Below, one piece after another: positions 16,707 to 37,607 of a stretch of 38,772 nucleotides of DNA (the stretch's first letter is position 1; every line of letters begins with the position of its first letter). The stretch is from a virus. Made by a program: the position numbers and the translations under genes. The stretch lies in the UHGV virus genome UHGV-0236456; one strand, given 5' to 3'. The notes beneath the pieces are model-generated. The model searched no databases. It was not told the DNA's origin and saw nothing but the letters and a program-made list of their open reading frames with translations.

Positions 16707-17374
16707 ACTTGCCGGGTACGTCTCCGGCGAGGGCTTCCACCTCCGTATGCTTTTCGGCGCACCGCGCCCTGGCTGCAATTCGGTAACAGGGGATGCATAA
16801 CCCTGGCTTCCAGCGTGATTAGCGCTTTCAGCATGACGGGATATACCCGTAAATTCGTGGAACTGTACCCAAAGTGCTGTTAAGCACCGCTGTTACGCTG
16901 AAAAGAAGACGCAACAGGAAAGGACGCTGACCAACAGATGGCCCCTTCTCGTTCATCTGGTTAATCACACCAGCGCCCTTACCTGTTGTGCCTCCCCGTT
17001 CCCTAATACACAGACGGGGACACTCTGCGGTCGATTTTTTGACGGGGGACGACTCATACCCCGTGGCGTCTGGCTTCTTAGGCCGCTACCATCATCAGAT
17101 CATCGTTTGCATTTACTTTAATGGTCAGTTTCTAAACCGCCGCAAAGTCGCTAACCATGACGAAAACCCTGAAAAAAACGCCCACCCGAAGATGGGCAAA
17201 CTGGAAGCTCGTAACGCACTTCGGTGTTGCCACTTAGGCGTATGGTCAACCTGGCAACTCGGCGTCATGAGGGGGAAGGAGTCACTACCCCGCCATACTT
17301 GCCGCCGCGCCTGTCGCGGCTAACAGCTAAATCGCTCTATAAATCACGATTCATTGAGGCGATATTACACTAAT

Positions 17375-17391
17375 AAATTTATTAGAGCAAT
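17375..17391 (-). promoter_or_regulatory. C1 operator, perfect 17/17 match (AAATTTATTAGAGCAAT = reverse complement of ATTGCTCTAATAAATTT), within a 16-bp palindrome CTAATAAATTTATTAG
   Basis: Read in sequence; overlaps the 3' end of the methyltransferase gene and heads the tRNA/helicase transcription unit. Confidence 0.6.
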
Positions 17392-25352: not shown

Positions 25353-26549
25353 ATGAGTGATTCCAGCCAGCTTCACAAGGTTGCTCAAAGAGCAAATAGA
25401 ATGCTCAATGTTCTGACTGAACAAGTACAGTTGCAAAAGGATGAGCTACACGCGAACGAGTTTTACCAGGTCTATGCGAAAGCGGCACTGGCAAAATTGC
25501 CTCTACTGACTCGTGCGAACGTTGACTATGCCGTAAGTGAAATGGAAGAAAAGGGTTATGTTTTCGATAAACGCCCTGCTGGCTCTTCAATGAAATATGC
25601 GATGTCAATTCAGAACATCATTGACATATATGAACATCGCGGAGTGCCAAAATACCGGGATCGCTACAGCGAAGCGTATGTGATTTTCATCTCCAATCTT
25701 AAAGGCGGTGTGTCAAAAACTGTATCGACGGTTTCTCTGGCGCATGCAATGCGTGCTCATCCTCATCTTCTGATGGAAGATTTAAGGATTCTGGTTATTG
25801 ACCTTGATCCGCAATCTTCAGCAACGATGTTTTTAAGCCATAAACACTCTATTGGTATCGTAAACGCAACATCTGCACAGGCTATGTTGCAGAATGTAAG
25901 CCGTGAAGAGCTGTTAGAGGAGTTTATTGTTCCTTCTGTTGTACCTGGGGTTGACGTTATGCCTGCGTCGATTGACGATGCCTTTATTGCATCCGATTGG
26001 AGAGAGCTGTGCAATGAGCATCTACCGGGTCAGAACATCCATGCAGTCCTGAAAGAAAATGTGATTGATAAGCTGAAGAGCGATTATGACTTTATCCTCG
26101 TTGATAGTGGTCCTCACCTTGACGCCTTCCTGAAAAATGCTTTGGCCTCGGCCAATATACTGTTTACACCTCTGCCGCCTGCAACGGTTGATTTCCACTC
26201 ATCGCTTAAATACGTTGCCCGCCTTCCTGAGTTGGTGAAACTCATTTCGGATGAAGGCTGCGAGTGTCAGCTTGCAACTAACATTGGTTTTATGTCCAAG
26301 TTGAGTAACAAGGCAGACCATAAGTATTGCCATAGCCTGGCTAAAGAAGTGTTCGGTGGGGATATGCTTGATGTTGTCCTCCCTCGCCTTGACGGTTTTG
26401 AACGCTGCGGCGAGTCTTTTGACACTGTTATTTCAGCTAACCCGGCAACGTATGTTGGTAGTGCTGATGCATTGAAGAACGCGCGAATTGCTGCGGAAGA
26501 TTTTGCTAAAGCAGTTTTTGACCGTATTGAATTTATCAGATCTAACTGA
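25353..26549 (+). CDS. parA: type Ia partition ATPase ParA
   Basis: 398 aa; deviant Walker A KGGVSKT; N-terminal DNA-binding extension typical of P1 ParA/SopA; followed by parB and parS. Confidence 0.95.
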   Translation: MSDSSQLHKVAQRANRMLNVLTEQVQLQKDELHANEFYQVYAKAALAKLPLLTRANVDYAVSEMEEKGYVFDKRPAGSSMKYAMSIQNIIDIYEHRGVPKYRDRYSEAYVIFISNLKGGVSKTVSTVSLAHAMRAHPHLLMEDLRILVIDLDPQSSATMFLSHKHSIGIVNATSAQAMLQNVSREELLEEFIVPSVVPGVDVMPASIDDAFIASDWRELCNEHLPGQNIHAVLKENVIDKLKSDYDFILVDSGPHLDAFLKNALASANILFTPLPPATVDFHSSLKYVARLPELVKLISDEGCECQLATNIGFMSKLSNKADHKYCHSLAKEVFGGDMLDVVLPRLDGFERCGESFDTVISANPATYVGSADALKNARIAAEDFAKAVFDRIEFIRSN

Positions 26550-26565
26550 GGAGTAAGAAACCCCC

Positions 26566-27567
26566 ATGTCAAAGAAAAACAGACCAACAATTGGGCGAAC
26601 CCTTAATCCTTCAATATTAAGCGGATTTGATAGTTCTTCAGCCTCTGGCGATCGAGTCGAGCAGGTATTCAAGTTATCAACTGGTCGCCAGGCCACATTT
26701 ATTGAAGAGGTAATACCTCCGAACCAGGTAGAAAGCGATACCTTTGTTGATCAGCATAACAACGGGCGTGACCAGGCATCTCTTACGCCAAAATCATTAA
26801 AAAGTATCCGAAGCACTATTAAGCATCAGCAATTTTACCCTGCAATAGGTGTTAGACGGGCTACAGGGAAAATTGAAATTTTGGATGGTTCCCGGCGTCG
26901 AGCTTCTGCCATCTTAGAGAACGTAGGGTTGCGGGTTTTAGTCACGGACCAGGAGATCAGCGTTCAGGAAGCGCAAAATTTAGCGAAAGACGTTCAGACA
27001 GCATTGCAGCACAGCATTCGAGAAATAGGTCTGCGTTTGATGCGAATGAAAAATGATGGGATGAGTCAGAAGGATATTGCAGCCAAAGAAGGGCTGTCTC
27101 AGGCGAAGGTCACGCGTGCTCTCCAGGCTGCGAGTGCTCCGGAAGAATTAGTCGCCCTTTTCCCTGTGCAGTCGGAATTAACCTTTTCGGACTACAAAAC
27201 GCTTTGTGCTGTTGGCGACGAAATGGGGAACAAGAATTTAGAGTTTGATCAGCTTATTCAAAACATATCCCCGGAAATAAACGACATCTTATCCATTGAA
27301 GAAATGGCCGAAGATGAAGTTAAAAATAAAATCCTGCGCTTGATAACAAAGGAAGCCTCACTACTCACGGATAAAGGTTCTAAAGATAAGTCCGTAGTTA
27401 CTGAATTATGGAAATTTGAGGACAAGGATCGCTTTGCAAGGAAGCGCGTGAAAGGCCGTGCATTTTCTTATGAGTTTAATCGACTTTCAAAAGAGCTACA
27501 GGAAGAACTCGACAGGATGATTGGGCATATCCTTAGAAAGAGCCTCGATAAAAAGCCGAAGCCTTAA
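26566..27567 (+). CDS. parB: partition centromere-binding protein ParB
   Basis: 333 aa; SD GAGGAG; ParB-type HTH region; immediately upstream of parS-like site. Confidence 0.95.
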   Translation: MSKKNRPTIGRTLNPSILSGFDSSSASGDRVEQVFKLSTGRQATFIEEVIPPNQVESDTFVDQHNNGRDQASLTPKSLKSIRSTIKHQQFYPAIGVRRATGKIEILDGSRRRASAILENVGLRVLVTDQEISVQEAQNLAKDVQTALQHSIREIGLRLMRMKNDGMSQKDIAAKEGLSQAKVTRALQAASAPEELVALFPVQSELTFSDYKTLCAVGDEMGNKNLEFDQLIQNISPEINDILSIEEMAEDEVKNKILRLITKEASLLTDKGSKDKSVVTELWKFEDKDRFARKRVKGRAFSYEFNRLSKELQEELDRMIGHILRKSLDKKPKP

Positions 27568-33156: not shown

Positions 33157-33283
33157 TAACTATTTTATATAAACATGCATCGATAACATTGTCTGGAGTT
33201 TTATGTTAGATTATTAATGTTCTAATAAACTACAATTATTGAGGTAGATGTTTGTGCCTGTACTGTTAAAGGGGGACTCTAAA

Positions 33284-33880
33284 ATGGCTGTGATTCCAAT
33301 GTCGTACTCCCCGGGTACTGTCGCTCGTCGATTTTCGATCCTGGACGGAGTTACCATCCAGGGTGTGCTTTACCAGGTTATATGGGATTCCAAAACCCCA
33401 TTTGCAGCTGTAATAGAGGCTGCGCCTTCTATTATCGATGGTGATATGCGCCATAAGGTTGTCGCCACTCTTGAACTTCAACGTCGCCCACAGCTTGAAG
33501 GCGTACTGGTGAGGAAGTTCTGGGAAGATAACGATGTTGCCCAGATTGAAGGTATCGTGGTTGATGGAATCGTCCGGGATGTCGGTTTAGCCACTTTTGT
33601 TTATGAAACCGTAGCTTCAAAAGCCGGAGTTGTTTTGCTAAGTGACAATGAGCAATACGAAGGCGGAAAGGCTCTTTGGCAGCACATCGCTCGTCGTTCT
33701 TCCGAACTAAAAGTTTTTATCCTTGACACCGATACTGCTCAGTATTACCCATTTGATGGCGAACGTGTTTGCTATGACGGGAAAAGTATTCCTGAATCCG
33801 AGATATGGAGTGAACATCCGGATCGAAGTAAGCATGGGGTTGTTCTTGTCGCAGAATCCATAACTGGAAAGGCGGCATAG
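33284..33880 (+). CDS. hypothetical protein (198 aa)
   Basis: Start at ATG 33284 with SD AAAGGGGGA after a 170-bp AT-rich leader. Confidence 0.55.
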   Translation: MAVIPMSYSPGTVARRFSILDGVTIQGVLYQVIWDSKTPFAAVIEAAPSIIDGDMRHKVVATLELQRRPQLEGVLVRKFWEDNDVAQIEGIVVDGIVRDVGLATFVYETVASKAGVVLLSDNEQYEGGKALWQHIARRSSELKVFILDTDTAQYYPFDGERVCYDGKSIPESEIWSEHPDRSKHGVVLVAESITGKAA

Positions 33881-34168
33881 CAGTAAAATTCCTTGCTCCT
33901 TAAAAGGGGAGAGGGTTAATCTAGATATGCTAAGCATAGATATGGCCTCAGATTAATGTTAAGCGTCTTGCAGGACGCGTAATGTTATCTGGGGCTTTCT
34001 TCTGTTATTTGTTTGAGTGCTAGGTAGCAAAGAGAGCTAGCATTCATCAGGCAAATCTATCAATAAATAGCGTTAGTTTTTGTTGTGTGTATGTTTCTTT
34101 ATTGTTATTGTGTTGTTTGTTTTTTGGACGACGCAATTCCTATAATCTATAGAATAAAGGAAGCATAT

Positions 34169-34456
34169 ATGGCTGATGTACGCATTACTTGCATTACCCT
34201 CTCCGGCTCGCAATCAATCCATGAGCATATTACTCATGTGGGAAGTCCTCAATTTAATACTAGCAATGGGAAATGGACTGTTGAGCAGGTAATTAATGCT
34301 ATTGATAATAATCTCCATACATTCTATGTAACAGATAATGCAGGTAATCGTGTAGAAGTTGGGGTTGTTAATCCTGGTAATGGTGGAAGGCAGTTTATTA
34401 GAACGTATGCAGACAATCGATGGAATAATAATTTACTATCGCTACCAGTCTGTTAA
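34169..34456 (+). CDS. DUF3892-like small protein (95 aa)
   Basis: SD AAGGAAG; RITCITLSGSQSIHEHITHVG...GKWTVEQVINAID...FYV...GNRVEVGVVN...FIRTYADNRWNNNLLSLPVC matches my recollection of the DUF3892 pattern; AT-rich gene. Confidence 0.6.
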   Translation: MADVRITCITLSGSQSIHEHITHVGSPQFNTSNGKWTVEQVINAIDNNLHTFYVTDNAGNRVEVGVVNPGNGGRQFIRTYADNRWNNNLLSLPVC

Positions 34457-34471
34457 TGTAATTTTATAAAA

Positions 34472-34500
34472 AGGCTGCAACCTCTGTTGCAGCCTTTTTT
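34472..34500. terminator. bidirectional rho-independent terminator (GGCTGCAAC-CTCT-GTTGCAGCC flanked by A-run and T-run)
   Basis: Read in sequence between convergent genes. Confidence 0.6.
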
Positions 34501-34525
34501 TAGCCATTATGACTGAGATAAGCCA

Positions 34526-35581
34526 CTATAAACTCTGAACAAGACGTTCGATTGCTGCACCATATCTTTCTAATGGTTCATTATTGATTTGTGGCTCAGT
34601 GTCATGGATCTGATATCTGCCTGGTTTTATATCAAATAGAGGTCTTCCTAGATGGGAAGATACTATAGCTACGGAATGGTTATCTGGCACAGTAAACGTT
34701 TTTAAATTTCCGCCTTGGAACGCTGTTGGTTTATTCGTCCGCAGATTTTCAGCTCTATCCCTGATTTCGTCGAACATTGCCGAAAACGCTTTACTTGCTC
34801 GTTTGTCATACTCTGTCGAACGATTAAAAACTAGAGAATGAATGACAGGAACCGCTAGACCAAACTGTTGACACCGATCGTAAAAGTTAACAGAACGATA
34901 ATCGTTTTGTACTCCAACGCCATAAACCAACTGGCTTAGGTTATCCACTGCTCGAGCCGAAGAACCATCACTTGAGCAAGGTATTATAATTGCATTTGCT
35001 GCTATCAGTGATAGTTCGGTATAGGCAGAGAAACTGGGATTGCAATCAATAAAGCAAATGGTTTCTTCGATACCTTGTTGTTGTGCACATGCAACAAGCA
35101 AATCTCGTAGCCACAGGTGGATGCTTTTCCATGAGTCAACTGGTAAGTTTACGCTGCTTAACTGATTGATTACTTGCGCCTGAACTTCCAGGCTTGGGTC
35201 GCCTGCAATCAAAAATACATTGTCAGGGACATGCTCGTTAATTTCAGAGACATGAATTAAGAAACTTGTTTCTGAACCGGTAAGCATGTGGGGGCTGCGA
35301 GTTCTTCTGTCAAAGTACCCACCGACAGTTTTTCGTTGTTGAATTAAGCTCGCGAGGTTAGCAGCACCAGTACCGTTACCGCCGAGCAATATTTCAGATA
35401 AGTTAGCCTGCGGGCACATATCTGCAAAAATAATACGCTTTTCTGGATTTTGCCTTGCGTATTCACAGGCCATAGCGAAAGATAAGTAGGTCTTTCCTAC
35501 GCCACCTTTATTATTCCAAATAGCATATGATTTCATGGTATCCCCGGCGTTATCTGCTGTTTGTGTGCCAGCATAAGTCAT
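34526..35581 (-). CDS. orphan ParA/MinD-family ATPase with extended C-terminal domain (alternative start at 35536)
   Basis: Deviant Walker A NNKGGVGKT near N-terminus, DMCPQANL and IDCNP motifs; no adjacent ParB-like gene. Confidence 0.7.
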   Translation of the reverse strand: MTYAGTQTADNAGDTMKSYAIWNNKGGVGKTYLSFAMACEYARQNPEKRIIFADMCPQANLSEILLGGNGTGAANLASLIQQRKTVGGYFDRRTRSPHMLTGSETSFLIHVSEINEHVPDNVFLIAGDPSLEVQAQVINQLSSVNLPVDSWKSIHLWLRDLLVACAQQQGIEETICFIDCNPSFSAYTELSLIAANAIIIPCSSDGSSARAVDNLSQLVYGVGVQNDYRSVNFYDRCQQFGLAVPVIHSLVFNRSTEYDKRASKAFSAMFDEIRDRAENLRTNKPTAFQGGNLKTFTVPDNHSVAIVSSHLGRPLFDIKPGRYQIHDTEPQINNEPLERYGAAIERLVQSL

Positions 35582-35845
35582 TATGCATCTCCATTACTAT
35601 CCATGAATTAAGTCAAAAAATATGTAAAAGTAGCAATGTATCACTCTTTTACTAATTATAAACGTTACAAGTTGTGATGGTTAGCTGTGTTTTTATCAGT
35701 ACAAGTTTTGATCTGGCTTTGGGTTTTTATATATGGATATGTCTCAACGATGCCCTGCAAAAAGTAATCGCTAACTGTAAAAAATCAGATTGCATCTCCG
35801 ACCTCAAACTGAAAACGCCAGGTGACTCCAGATTAGAGCAATCTA

Positions 35846-36691
35846 TCACCCTCTGAATCCTGCCGGTATACCCCATTTTTCGTTATCTTTATTTTTGGCT
35901 AAAACCGCATTAAGAGCTTCGTTTACCGTCATGCAATGCGGCAGATTATCGAAGTTTGATACCCCGCTAATATCAGGAGAACGCTTGTTCTTCAGGTAAG
36001 CATATTTCCGCGCTGCCGCCTCTACTTTCTGCTTGAACTCATGTTTTTGAGCGCGTTTTTTGGATAACCGCAGATTGTCAGCCTTTGCTTTTGCCTCAGC
36101 GATCCATGAGGTCAATTTTTTGAATCTGGTCGTTCCGGCACCGCCGGAAACTGATCTTTTTGTTTTTTTAACTTGTGACTTCTTATTCTTTATTGCCACG
36201 TCATCCTGACAGGGGGAGGGGGTATCATTTTGACATGGGGGTGTGGATAAAAAATTAAATAAAGACAATGTCTTAGCGAGAACAGCTTTAACCTTGGTTG
36301 CCGCTGAAGAGATCTTTAATTTGCTTTTAATCAGCGCATTTTTGGCTTGTTGTGCGAAGGCCAAAAAGGATGGTGTAAACCGGTACAGGTTAGCGCGACG
36401 TTCACGGTGATCGCCGATAACAATCTCTACAGACAGAATTCCTTTGTTTACAGCTTCACGGAATGCACGAACGACGGTTGATTGGCTATAACCAGTTTCT
36501 GCCGCGATCAGGCGGTGAGGCTTGTGAATGAAGTATTCACTGGTTGTTGCCGCTAGATTTGCACATTGCGACAGGATATGCCCGGCGCTACGGGATAGAC
36601 CGGAGTGTGTTACAAAGCAGGCCAATTCATAGCCAGAAAAAGTAAAATCGCTCATCGTTATACAGCTCAGGAAAGTGACTTTAGCCAGCAT
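35846..36691 (-). CDS. repL: RepL-like lytic replication initiator
   Basis: 281 aa; immediately downstream of kilA in same orientation, as in the P1 kilA-repL operon (memory); basic C-terminal half. Confidence 0.75.
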   Translation of the reverse strand: MLAKVTFLSCITMSDFTFSGYELACFVTHSGLSRSAGHILSQCANLAATTSEYFIHKPHRLIAAETGYSQSTVVRAFREAVNKGILSVEIVIGDHRERRANLYRFTPSFLAFAQQAKNALIKSKLKISSAATKVKAVLAKTLSLFNFLSTPPCQNDTPSPCQDDVAIKNKKSQVKKTKRSVSGGAGTTRFKKLTSWIAEAKAKADNLRLSKKRAQKHEFKQKVEAAARKYAYLKNKRSPDISGVSNFDNLPHCMTVNEALNAVLAKNKDNEKWGIPAGFRG

Positions 36692-37590: not shown

Positions 37591-37607
37591 AAATTTATTA
37601 GAGCAAA
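37591..37607 (-). promoter_or_regulatory. C1 operator-like site (AAATTTATTAGAGCAAA, 16/17) upstream of kilA
   Basis: Read in sequence; position equivalent to the operator controlling kilA-repL in P1 (memory). Confidence 0.55.

What the first reader, a model, noticed from the sequence alone, without database searches (positions are those of the whole stretch)
33881..35845. AT-rich two-gene module: DUF3892-like small protein convergent with an orphan ParA-like ATPase
Seen in sequence: a 95-aa protein with an HEHITHVG...NNLLSLPVC pattern (DUF3892-like, from memory) and a 351-aa ParA/MinD-family ATPase (KGGVGKT, DMCPQANL, IDCNP) with a long unassigned C-terminal domain and no ParB partner. The two converge on a shared bidirectional terminator in a markedly AT-rich stretch with long AT-rich leaders, and a weak operator half-site (35826-35842) lies in the ATPase promoter region. 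By position these may be P1 rlfB/rlfA, whose functions are unknown. A second ParA-type NTPase on a plasmid that already has a canonical ParAB-parS system suggests a non-partition role (inference: exclusion, replication control, or a defence-type NTPase).
Basis: partly seen in the sequence, partly recalled or inferred. Interest (0 to 1): 0.5.

Follow-up and report, generated by a model that had tools for sequence, protein, structure and literature searches.

The report
Orphan ParA-like ATPase cargo cassette
A P1-like phage-plasmid has swapped P1's rlfA/rlfB genes for two unrelated accessory genes: a small DUF3892 protein, and a partner-less ParA-like ATPase that in other temperate phages sits right behind the repressor gene, where phage-exclusion genes are usually found, so it is an untested exclusion candidate and not a second partition system.

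Summary
The features are real and sit at the stated coordinates. They are a 95-aa DUF3892 protein (Pfam E=1.7e-15), a convergent 351-aa ParA/MinD-fold ATPase, a shared bidirectional terminator, the most AT-poor-in-GC stretch of the window (39.6% GC), and the 11-nt core of a C1 operator.

- The genes occupy P1's rlfA/rlfB slot but are not homologous to them. This slot is a published hypervariable hotspot, and P1's own RlfA/RlfB match the PADLOC candidate defence system PDC-M04.
- The "C-terminal domain" is the rest of a single ParA fold carrying insertions.
- The two genes are not a conserved pair. They co-occur only in one ~99%-identical cassette carried by about 40 P1-like plasmids. None of 82 genomic loci and none of 75 non-P1 viral loci with the ATPase has a DUF3892 gene nearby.

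The ATPase belongs to a highly conserved, always partner-less clade.
- Its hallmark is a Dx**C**PQ motif in place of the catalytic DxDPQ.
- In 59 of 75 non-P1 viral contigs it lies just downstream of cI, co-directional with it. This is the rexAB/bstA position.
- A distant subfamily sits on 3–6 kb ColE1-type plasmids.

My best reading is two independent cargo genes, with the ATPase acting in exclusion or competition against other mobile DNA. That function is inferred, not shown.

The parts
33170..35832 (.). Variable 'rlf' slot relative to phage P1, lying between the bplB terminator and the C1 operator after repL. In P1 the same slot holds pmgF, rlfB and rlfA.
   Evidence: Alignments with P1 NC_005856: identity ends just after the bplB terminator on the left and inside the operator (ATTGCTCTAAT) on the right. 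The literature lists rlfA-rlfB-pmgF as hypervariable region 5 of P1-like phage-plasmids (PMC9603915; PMC6906374).
33248..33880 (+). 210-aa ORF (RefSeq aa from 33284). The N-terminal ~65 aa are homologous to P1 PmgF and are followed by a C-terminal extension. This gene is not part of the cassette.
   Evidence: BLASTP against P1 PmgF gives 43% identity, E=4e-16. It matches phrog_7522 over its full length and phrog_7349 over the N-terminus. The gene is shared with phages 673R5, SJ46 and RCS47, which carry other cargo downstream.
33876..34045 (-). Remnant of a hok/sok-type locus, sok-like and below threshold, in the leader upstream of DUF3892.
   Evidence: Rfam sok RF01794 scores 26 bits (gathering score 59), E=0.004. 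Positions 33910-33998 are 88-90% identical to mok/hok regions of lambdoid phages and 97% identical to other P1-like phages. No Hok ORF is present.
34005..35760 (.). The ~1.76-kb DUF3892 + ParA-like cassette proper. It replaces about 330 bp that encode a small membrane protein in the closest P1-like phages (673R5, phi456).
   Evidence: Three-way alignment: homology with 673R5 and phi456 runs up to about 34004 and resumes at about 35753-35768. The block is 39.5% GC. It is 99-100% identical in about 40 P1-like plasmids of Escherichia and one of Salmonella, never occurs on an E. coli chromosome, and is absent from the phage collection.
34141..34163 (+). Putative DUF3892 expression signals: a perfect -10 TATAAT (34141-34146) with a poor -35, and the Shine-Dalgarno sequence AAGGAAG (34157-34163). 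A 16-nt palindrome at 34137-34162 overlaps both.
   Evidence: Read directly from the sequence; palindrome I3. The promoter scan did not flag the site, so its function is inferred.
34169..34456 (+). DUF3892 protein, 95 aa. C8, H23 and C95 are invariant across the family.
34465..34502 (.). Bidirectional intrinsic terminator shared by the two convergent genes.
   Evidence: Inverted repeat I2, 17-nt arms, 94% complementary, 4-nt loop. Folding energies and z-scores on both strands.
34526..35581 (-). Orphan ParA/MinD-fold ATPase, 351 aa as the ORF reads. The conserved protein probably starts at Met16 (ATG at 35536), giving 336 aa. Motifs: deviant Walker A K25GGVGK30T; switch I D54-M-C56-P-Q, with Cys where ParA and MinD have the catalytic Asp; Walker B FIDCNP.
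35582..35845 (-). 264-nt AT-rich leader (34.5% GC) between repL and the ParA-like gene. It has a -10-like TATAAT at 35660-35655 with a poor -35, and no strong terminator after repL, so read-through from the C1-controlled kilA-repL operon is possible.
   Evidence: Sequence; GC content; no promoter-like site on the minus strand in the scan. The direct repeat TACAAGTT(G/T)TGAT occurs at 35666 and 35700. The mode of expression is inferred.
35766..35795 (-). A scar: the first 10 codons (MQSDFLQLAI) of the small membrane-protein gene that fills this slot in phages 673R5 and phi456.
   Evidence: Alignment; contained in the 49-aa ORF 35727-35876(-).
35826..35842 (-). Counterpart of the P1 C1 operator Op55/Orlf. 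The 11-nt core ATTGCTCTAAT is intact and the last 6 nt have diverged.
   Evidence: P1 annotation, alignment and motif counts. P1's own Op55 also differs from the consensus at 5 of the last 6 positions.

Best explanation
The interval is one 1.76-kb accessory cassette in the known hypervariable 'rlf' cargo slot of a P1-like phage-plasmid. It carries two independent accessory genes that end at one bidirectional terminator.

Gene 1 is a stand-alone DUF3892 protein. This small domain recurs in accessory regions of satellites, islands and transposons.

Gene 2 is a member of a distinct, strongly conserved clade of partner-less ParA/MinD-fold ATPases.
- It keeps the ATP-binding and sandwich-dimer motifs: the signature Lys, the P-loop Lys and the Walker B Asp.
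- It has an invariant Cys where ParA and MinD have the Asp needed for ATP hydrolysis.
- I therefore infer a slow-hydrolysing, ATP-'locked' dimer that needs no ParB-type activator.

Gene 2 is not a partition protein for this plasmid, which has its own ParAB. In lambdoid prophages it occupies the cI-proximal rexAB/bstA position. In P1-like elements it occupies a slot that otherwise holds a candidate defence system. From this I infer that the resident element expresses it to interfere with other incoming or competing DNA elements, that is, superinfection exclusion, defence or plasmid interference. The likely route is ATP-dependent binding to DNA or the nucleoid, or to a conserved replication or segregation factor.

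Shown: the anatomy, the family membership, the lack of a partner, the contexts and the purifying selection.
Inferred: impaired hydrolysis, the timing of expression, and the exclusion function.
For: Slot and cassette
- Breakpoints against P1, 673R5 and phi456.
- The slot holds different cargo in P1/P7, SJ46, RCS47, 673R5 and phi456. It is described as hypervariable in PMC9603915 and PMC6906374.
- P1 RlfA and RlfB match PADLOC PDC-M04A and PDC-M04B at 1e-95 and 1e-51.

Independence of the two genes
- None of 82 genomic and none of 75 non-P1 viral ParA-like loci has DUF3892.
- DUF3892 loci elsewhere have other neighbours: an FRG-domain protein matching PDC-S15, DUF2188, or a 229-aa protein without Pfam hits.

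No partner
- No neighbour family occurs in more than 8 of 82 genomic loci, and the commonest ones are IS transposases.
- Immediate neighbours range from housekeeping genes to a type III restriction enzyme and a tape-measure protein.
- There are no iterons or tandem repeats near the gene.

Not partition
- The window has a canonical ParA and ParB.
- Relatives lie in integrated prophages and in 3-6 kb ColRNAI plasmids.

Immunity-region position
- 51 of 75 non-P1 viral loci have a CI-like repressor gene directly upstream and co-directional. Another 8 have one gene in between.
- Named examples are phi297, Klebsiella phage ST11-VIM1phi8.2 and a Serratia prophage.
- The cI-to-N interval is a documented hotspot that holds the abortive-infection gene bstA (10.1101/2020.07.13.199331).

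Selection
- Protein identity of 85-89% against 74-76% nucleotide identity, confined to the coding sequence.
- 55-60% identity across phyla and into archaea.

Fold and motifs
-.
- Own knowledge: Ala mutants at this Asp (Soj D44A and D40A, MinD D40A) bind ATP and dimerise but do not hydrolyse.
Against: - No PADLOC model matches either protein, and I found no paper reporting a phenotype. The literature searches found only a remark that phi297 has parA without parB (PMC3564109).
- In this window the gene follows repL, behind a C1 operator remnant and with no convincing promoter of its own. It may therefore be expressed in lytic growth and not in the lysogen, which fits a replication-linked role better than a lysogen-protecting one.
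- Very high conservation across phyla is unusual for proteins that sense phage components.
- Many genomic copies are not in recognisable defence islands, and several are pseudogenes.
- The effect of Asp-to-Cys on hydrolysis is inferred from other family members, not measured.
- The cI-adjacent counts include related prophages, so they overstate the number of independent events. About 25 distinct architectures are seen.
Confidence: 0.45

Rival explanations
1. The two genes form a functional two-component system. DUF3892 would be a sensor or regulator and the ParA-like ATPase an effector or switch, acquired and kept together.
For: They always travel together in the P1-like cassette and share a terminator. 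DUF3892 is repeatedly found beside variable larger partners: an FRG-domain protein matching PDC-S15 45 nt downstream in viral contigs L200/L201 and adjacent in a Salmonella island, and a convergent 229-aa protein in satellites. Burroughs & Aravind predicted DUF3892 to be a conflict-system domain (cited in 10.1101/2022.04.27.489752 and 10.1101/2025.01.14.632903).
Against: The association is seen in one ~99%-identical block, which is effectively a single acquisition. None of 157 other ParA-like loci has DUF3892. The genes are convergent with separate leaders, not an operon. The conserved unit of the ATPase is its coding sequence alone.
Confidence: 0.12
2. The ParA-like protein is a real positioning or partition ATPase. 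It might be a backup or ParB-independent segregation function, or it might position replicating phage DNA.
Against: There is no ParB, no adaptor and no centromere-like repeat in any context. The gene occurs in integrated prophages, in multicopy ColE1-type plasmids and as single chromosomal genes among housekeeping genes. The element already has ParAB. The catalytic Asp is replaced throughout the clade. It scores far below the NCBIfam ParA cutoffs, 39.9 bits against 180.
Confidence: 0.1
3. It regulates replication or the lysis-lysogeny programme, a Soj-like switch acting on an initiator such as DnaA or RepL, or on repressor function. In other words, it is truly 'replication-linked'.
For: It lies directly downstream of repL/oriL, co-directional, behind a C1 operator remnant and without a strong promoter or terminator in between. 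In lambdoid phages it sits in the regulatory immunity region beside cI. Own knowledge: Soj regulates DnaA, and ATP-locked ParA-type dimers act as switches.
Against: Most P1-like phages, including P1 itself, lack the gene, so it is dispensable for the life cycle. The same clade occurs in non-phage contexts: flanked by IS elements, next to housekeeping genes, and on tiny plasmids.
Confidence: 0.15
4. The cassette is neutral hitch-hiking DNA with no function for the element.
For: It is AT-rich foreign DNA in a recombination hotspot. Remnants of other cargo lie on both sides. Some genomic homologues are pseudogenes.
Against: Both ORFs are intact in about 40 plasmids from humans, pigs, poultry and the environment. 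There is strong purifying selection, 87% amino-acid against 75% nucleotide identity. The active-site motifs are invariant across phyla.
Confidence: 0.05

Closest known systems
ParA/Soj/McdA-type deviant Walker A ATPases (ParA/MinD superfamily)
   Different: It has no ParB, adaptor or centromere. The switch-I motif is DxCPQ, not DxDPQ. About 90 extra residues are spread as insertions. It also carries clade-specific invariant motifs: PCSSDGSSARA, NRSTxY...ASKAF and PDxHSVAIVxSH. It scores far below the NCBIfam partition-ATPase cutoffs.
Lambda rexAB and Salmonella BTP1 bstA (cI-proximal prophage exclusion or abortive-infection genes)
   Same: Same genomic position and orientation in lambdoid prophages, immediately downstream of cI and ahead of the leftward early genes, in 59 of 75 non-P1 viral loci (10.1101/2020.07.13.199331 for bstA and the hotspot).
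   Different: No sequence or fold relationship. The similarity is positional only, and no exclusion phenotype has been tested.
P1 rlfA/rlfB (P7 rapA/rapB), matching PADLOC candidate system PDC-M04
   Same: Same slot between repL/Op55 and pmgF/bplB, and likewise AT-rich cargo of unknown function.
   Different: The proteins are unrelated. rlfA and rlfB form a co-directional two-gene operon, whereas here the two genes are convergent.
BcsQ (cellulose secretion ParA/MinD-like ATPase)
   Same: Some database entries name homologues 'BcsQ'. Own knowledge: BcsQ also has Cys at the equivalent switch-I position (DACPDN) and behaves as an ATP-bound dimer.
DUF3892 (PF13031) conflict-system-associated domain
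   Same: The small protein is a full-length member. Its contexts (satellite, Tn7-like cargo, an island with an FRG-domain protein matching PDC-S15, DUF2188) match the published prediction of a role in biological conflict.

Membership tests
ParA/MinD superfamily (deviant Walker A ATPases) | Deviant Walker A xKGGxxK[ST] with an N-terminal signature lysine | tested here: met
   N24-K25-G-G-V-G-K30-T31 is invariant in alignment A2. 119 of 120 close homologues carry KGG[VIT]GK[TS].
ParA/MinD superfamily (deviant Walker A ATPases) | ParA/MinD three-dimensional fold | tested here: met
   [not shown]
ParA/MinD superfamily (deviant Walker A ATPases) | Switch I / Walker A' motif D-x-D-P-Q, whose second Asp is required for ATP hydrolysis | tested here: not met
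   The motif is D54-M-C56-P-Q. In a pairwise alignment C56 lines up with the second Asp of the window's own P1-type ParA, IDLDPQ. Cys is present in 119 of 119 close homologues and 86 of 93 scorable representatives.
Plasmid/chromosome partition ParA (ParABS type I) | A cognate ParB or adaptor gene adjacent, usually downstream in an operon | tested here: not met
   The gene ends at a terminator facing a convergent DUF3892 gene. No neighbour family is conserved across 82 genomic and 75 viral loci.
Plasmid/chromosome partition ParA (ParABS type I) | Centromere-like repeats (parS or iterons) nearby | tested here: not met
   No tandem repeats and only short two-copy direct repeats in 33881-35860.
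Plasmid/chromosome partition ParA (ParABS type I) | A score above the curated family cutoffs (NCBIfam NF041546 ParA_partition, TIGR03453, SopA) | tested here: not met
   39.9 bits against a cutoff of 180, and 20.7 bits against 348.
Plasmid/chromosome partition ParA (ParABS type I) | Required for stable inheritance of the replicon | not testable with these tools
   This needs plasmid-loss assays. Indirectly, the element has its own ParA and ParB, and relatives sit in integrated prophages and multicopy plasmids.
DUF3892 (PF13031) | A full-length match to the Pfam model above the gathering score | tested here: met
   57.7 bits against 22.3, profile positions 1-71 of 71, E=1.7e-15.
P1 RlfA/RlfB | Sequence homology to P1 RlfA (DUF3800) or RlfB | tested here: not met
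   BLASTP E=0.55, and no alignment at all. The Pfam and PADLOC hits of RlfA and RlfB (DUF3800, PDC-M04A/B) are absent from the window proteins.
Known anti-phage defence systems (PADLOC-DB v2.0.0) | A match to any model of a known or candidate defence protein | tested here: not met
   No families matched either protein at E<=1.
Prophage cI-proximal exclusion genes (functional class, e.g. rexAB, bstA) | Located immediately downstream of the repressor gene and co-directional with it | tested here: met
   This holds for homologues, 51 + 8 of 75 non-P1 viral loci. It does not hold in this window, where the gene follows repL.
Prophage cI-proximal exclusion genes (functional class, e.g. rexAB, bstA) | Confers resistance to superinfecting phages | not testable with these tools
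   This needs plaque or efficiency-of-plating assays.

The most novel reading that the evidence does not exclude
The DxCPQ ParA-like clade is a previously unrecognised single-gene system directed against other mobile elements. It would act as an ATP-locked, ParB-independent ParA-fold dimer that temperate phages (from the cI operon), phage-plasmids and small plasmids deploy to block the establishment, replication or segregation of incoming phages or plasmids. That would make it a new mechanistic class of exclusion built on the partition-ATPase fold.
Probability: 0.25. Interest if true: 0.75.

Novelty: new variant of a known kind. Interest (0 to 1): 0.45.

Why it matters
If the exclusion reading is right, a partition-type ATPase fold has been repurposed as a stand-alone weapon between mobile elements. 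It would be missing from current defence catalogues, yet it is present in prophages of Escherichia, Klebsiella, Salmonella, Serratia and Pseudomonas, and on small clinical plasmids.

Two results stand regardless of function. First, the 'second ParA' of these P1-like plasmids should not be annotated as a partition protein. Second, the P1 rlf slot behaves as a cargo hotspot: P1's own rlfA and rlfB match a candidate defence system. That makes the hotspot a practical place to look for new phage-plasmid accessory functions.

Tried and rejected
- Homology to P1 RlfA and RlfB: rejected.
- A conserved partner gene or small ParB: none found by clustering neighbours in 82 genomic and 85 viral loci.
- Co-occurrence with DUF3892 outside P1-like elements: none. 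The DUF3892 HMM was built only from relatives of this protein, so very divergent DUF3892 members could have been missed.
- Known defence models: no PADLOC hit.
- Centromere-like repeats: none.
- A shared leader or promoter travelling with the ATPase gene: none; homology is confined to the coding sequence.
- Structural neighbours of DUF3892: none significant. Sequence search of the PDB also found nothing.
- Rfam: only sub-threshold hits, namely a sok remnant and terminator look-alikes.
- Literature: no functional study of this ATPase clade or of DUF3892. Burroughs & Aravind 2020 could not be opened.
- One viral-contig scan failed and was repeated.
- A defence-island context for genomic copies: 10 tight neighbours were mostly housekeeping or mobile-element genes, and only one was a type III restriction enzyme.
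Full report
**1. What is there**

The window is a P1-like phage-plasmid. The interval is 100% identical to E. coli MS6198 plasmid pMS6198C and 99% identical to about 40 other P1-like plasmids of 90-120 kb. These come from Escherichia coli, E. fergusonii, E. albertii and one Salmonella. The block never occurs on an E. coli chromosome and is absent from the GenBank phage set.

The 95-aa protein (34169-34456, +) is a full-length DUF3892 (Pfam E=1.7e-15). The 351-aa protein (34526-35581, -) matches AAA_31 and CbiA, and matches the NCBIfam ParA models only far below their cutoffs.

The two genes converge on a strong hairpin at 34465-34502 that has runs of A and T on either side. It folds well on both strands (z -4.4 and -5.2). 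The interval is 39.6% GC, the second lowest of 737 equal-sized windows in a 47.6% GC window. A canonical P1-type ParA (398 aa) and ParB (333 aa) lie at 25353-27567.

**2. The slot**

In P1 and P7 the DNA between repL and bplB holds rlfA, rlfB and pmgF. Alignment with P1 shows identity up to the bplB terminator on one side. On the other side identity ends inside the C1 operator Op55/Orlf: the shared ATTGCTCTAAT core is followed by unrelated sequence.

So 35826-35842 is the positional counterpart of an annotated P1 operator. Its 11-nt core is highly non-random, with 6 copies in the window against 0.01 expected. P1's own Op55 is nearly as divergent in its last six bases.

The window proteins are not homologous to RlfA or RlfB. 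The 210-aa ORF at 33248-33880 is a PmgF homologue with an extension.

Comparison with closer relatives, phages 673R5 and phi456, narrows the cassette to about 34005-35760. It replaces roughly 330 bp that encode a small membrane protein, and the first ten codons of that gene survive at 35795-35766. A sok-like remnant lies on the left.

The slot carries different cargo in different P1-like elements:
- rlfAB in P1 and P7;
- a Lom-like protein in SJ46;
- an IS605 orfB in RCS47;
- a small membrane protein in 673R5 and phi456.

Two published comparisons list the slot as hypervariable (PMC9603915, PMC6906374). [quoted passage not shown] P1 RlfA and RlfB match the PADLOC candidate defence system PDC-M04A/B at 1e-95 and 1e-51. 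The slot therefore behaves like a cargo and defence hotspot.

**3. Are the two genes a pair?**

Within P1-like plasmids they always co-occur, but as one ~99%-identical block, which is effectively one acquisition. Outside that block they do not co-occur.
- I fetched 80 genomic loci (out of 345 species genomes with a hit, from 185,579 searched) plus a few others. Clustering neighbours within 5-8 kb left 82 non-redundant loci. None has a DUF3892 gene, and no neighbour family is present in more than 8 of them. The commonest neighbours are IS1595 and IS1-type transposases.
- Among 85 viral-contig loci, only the 10 P1-like ones carry DUF3892.
- DUF3892 homologues elsewhere lie in a capsid-encoding satellite-like element, in a Salmonella island beside an FRG-domain protein, and in Tn7-like cargo beside DUF2188. 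None is near a ParA-like gene.
- DUF3892 plus the FRG-domain protein (PADLOC candidate PDC-S15) recurs in two element types.

I conclude that the two genes are independent cargo genes. A functional link is a minority possibility.

**4. The ATPase**

*Conservation.* It belongs to a compact clade: 166 clusters at 50% identity with E<=1e-30 among 1.84 billion representatives. The clade is unusually conserved, at 55-60% identity from E. coli to Desulfovibrionaceae, Acidobacteriota, Patescibacteria and several archaeal MAGs.

Against relatives that are 85-89% identical in protein, nucleotide identity is only 74-76%. That homology starts just before Met16 and ends at the stop codon. This indicates strong purifying selection on the coding sequence alone, and it suggests that Met16 (35536) is the real start.

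*Motifs.* The signature Lys, the P-loop Lys/Thr and the Walker B Asp are invariant. The switch-I motif, however, is D-x-C-P-Q. The Cys aligns with the second Asp of DLDPQ in the window's own ParA. It is present in 119 of 119 close homologues and 86 of 93 scorable distant representatives.

From established work on Soj (D44A, D40A) and MinD (D40A), which I cite from memory, loss of that Asp gives ATP-bound dimers that hydrolyse poorly. I therefore infer a slow, switch-like ATPase. That would fit the absence of any ParB-type activator.

**5. Context as a clue to function**

In 51 of 75 non-P1 viral loci a CI-like repressor gene lies directly upstream and co-directional. The repressor is either an HTH plus S24 peptidase or a short HTH protein. 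In 8 further loci one gene intervenes. Named cases are Pseudomonas phage phi297 (71% identity), a Serratia prophage (85%), Klebsiella phage ST11-VIM1phi8.2 (35%) and two metagenomic prophages.

Two subfamilies, about 87% and about 35% identical to the query, occupy the same slot between the same flanking gene families. This is the rexAB position of lambda. The cI-to-N interval is a recognised mosaic hotspot that also houses the abortive-infection gene bstA (10.1101/2020.07.13.199331).

The distant subfamily is also common on 3-6 kb ColRNAI-type plasmids of Klebsiella, Salmonella, Enterobacter and Acinetobacter, which are multicopy and need no partition system. Other genomic copies are single genes among housekeeping genes, next to IS elements, or beside type III restriction-modification genes. 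Several are pseudogenes.

None of this fits a partition role. It fits a self-sufficient accessory gene that benefits the element carrying it.

**6. Limits**

No PADLOC model matches either protein, and I found no experimental paper. A review only remarks that phi297 has parA without parB (PMC3564109).

In this window the gene sits behind repL and an operator remnant. Its leader has a TATAAT with no good -35, and there is no clear terminator after repL. Expression may therefore be C1-controlled and lytic, which keeps a replication-linked or regulatory role in play.

The very high conservation argues for a universal ligand such as DNA, a nucleotide or a conserved host factor, and against a phage-specific trigger.

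**7. Verdict**

The cassette is ordinary in kind: AT-rich cargo in a known hotspot, already labelled 'ParA family protein' and 'DUF3892 domain-containing protein' in RefSeq.

The ATPase clade has three features that are not described in the literature I could search:
- it never has a partner gene;
- its catalytic Asp is replaced by Cys;
- it recurs at the cI-proximal exclusion position.

These make it a reasonable candidate for a new exclusion function that can be tested directly.

Noticed in passing
L001 (P1 NC_005856) 5241-6409 = record 51740-52908: P1 RlfA and RlfB, annotated as 'possibly associated with lytic replication', match the PADLOC candidate two-gene defence system PDC-M04A (1e-95) and PDC-M04B (1e-51). 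RlfA is a DUF3800 protein. A full-text search for 'PDC-M04' returned no papers.
   Followed up: partly
window 33876-34045 (-), especially 33910-33998: A remnant of a hok/sok-type locus. Rfam sok scores 26 bits (below threshold). An 89-nt stretch is 88-90% identical to mok/hok regions of Rac-like and lambdoid phages and 97% identical to other P1-like phages. No Hok ORF is present.
   Followed up: partly
window 35766-35795 (-): The first ten codons (MQSDFLQLAI) of a small membrane-protein gene that is intact in phages 673R5 and phi456. This is a scar marking the right edge of the cassette replacement.
   Followed up: yes
window 33248-33880 (+): The gene in the pmgF position encodes 210 aa. Its N-terminal ~65 aa are 43% identical to P1 PmgF (98 aa), and the rest is an unrelated extension (phrog_7522). 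The gene is shared with SJ46, RCS47 and 673R5.
   Followed up: partly
window 34137-34162 and 35666-35712: A 16-nt palindrome (TTCCTATAATCTATAG / CTATAGAATAAAGGAA) spans the -10 and ribosome-binding site of the DUF3892 gene. Two copies of TACAAGTT(G/T)TGAT lie 34 nt apart in the ParA-like leader. Either could be a regulator binding site or a chance match.
   Followed up: no
L014-L016 (Salmonella island) and L200/L201 (viral contigs): DUF3892 is followed by a co-directional FRG-domain protein that matches the PADLOC candidate PDC-S15 (1e-35), 45 nt downstream in L200/L201 and adjacent in the Salmonella island. This pair recurs in two different element types, whereas the pairing with ParA-like does not recur.
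   Followed up: partly
L083, L084, L085 (one Vicinamibacterales MAG chromosome): Three identical frameshifted copies of the ParA-like gene lie in one genome, each next to an IS1595-family transposase. In four alphaproteobacterial loci (L028, L035, L045, L057) the gene is flanked by the same transposase family and a 144-aa protein of unknown function.
   Followed up: no
window 1176-37607 (8 sites): Eight matches to the 17-nt C1 operator consensus with at most 3 mismatches, against 0.33 expected. They include an overlapping divergent pair at 17364-17391 and the kilA-repL operator at 37591-37607.
   Followed up: no
[not shown]
   Followed up: partly
L101 (K. pneumoniae 4,991-bp ColRNAI plasmid) and about 110 similar plasmids: A subfamily 35-38% identical to the ATPase is one of only about six genes on many 3-6 kb multicopy plasmids of clinical Enterobacterales and Acinetobacter. 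The others include Rop, an HTH protein, DUF2251 and DUF6530.
   Followed up: partly
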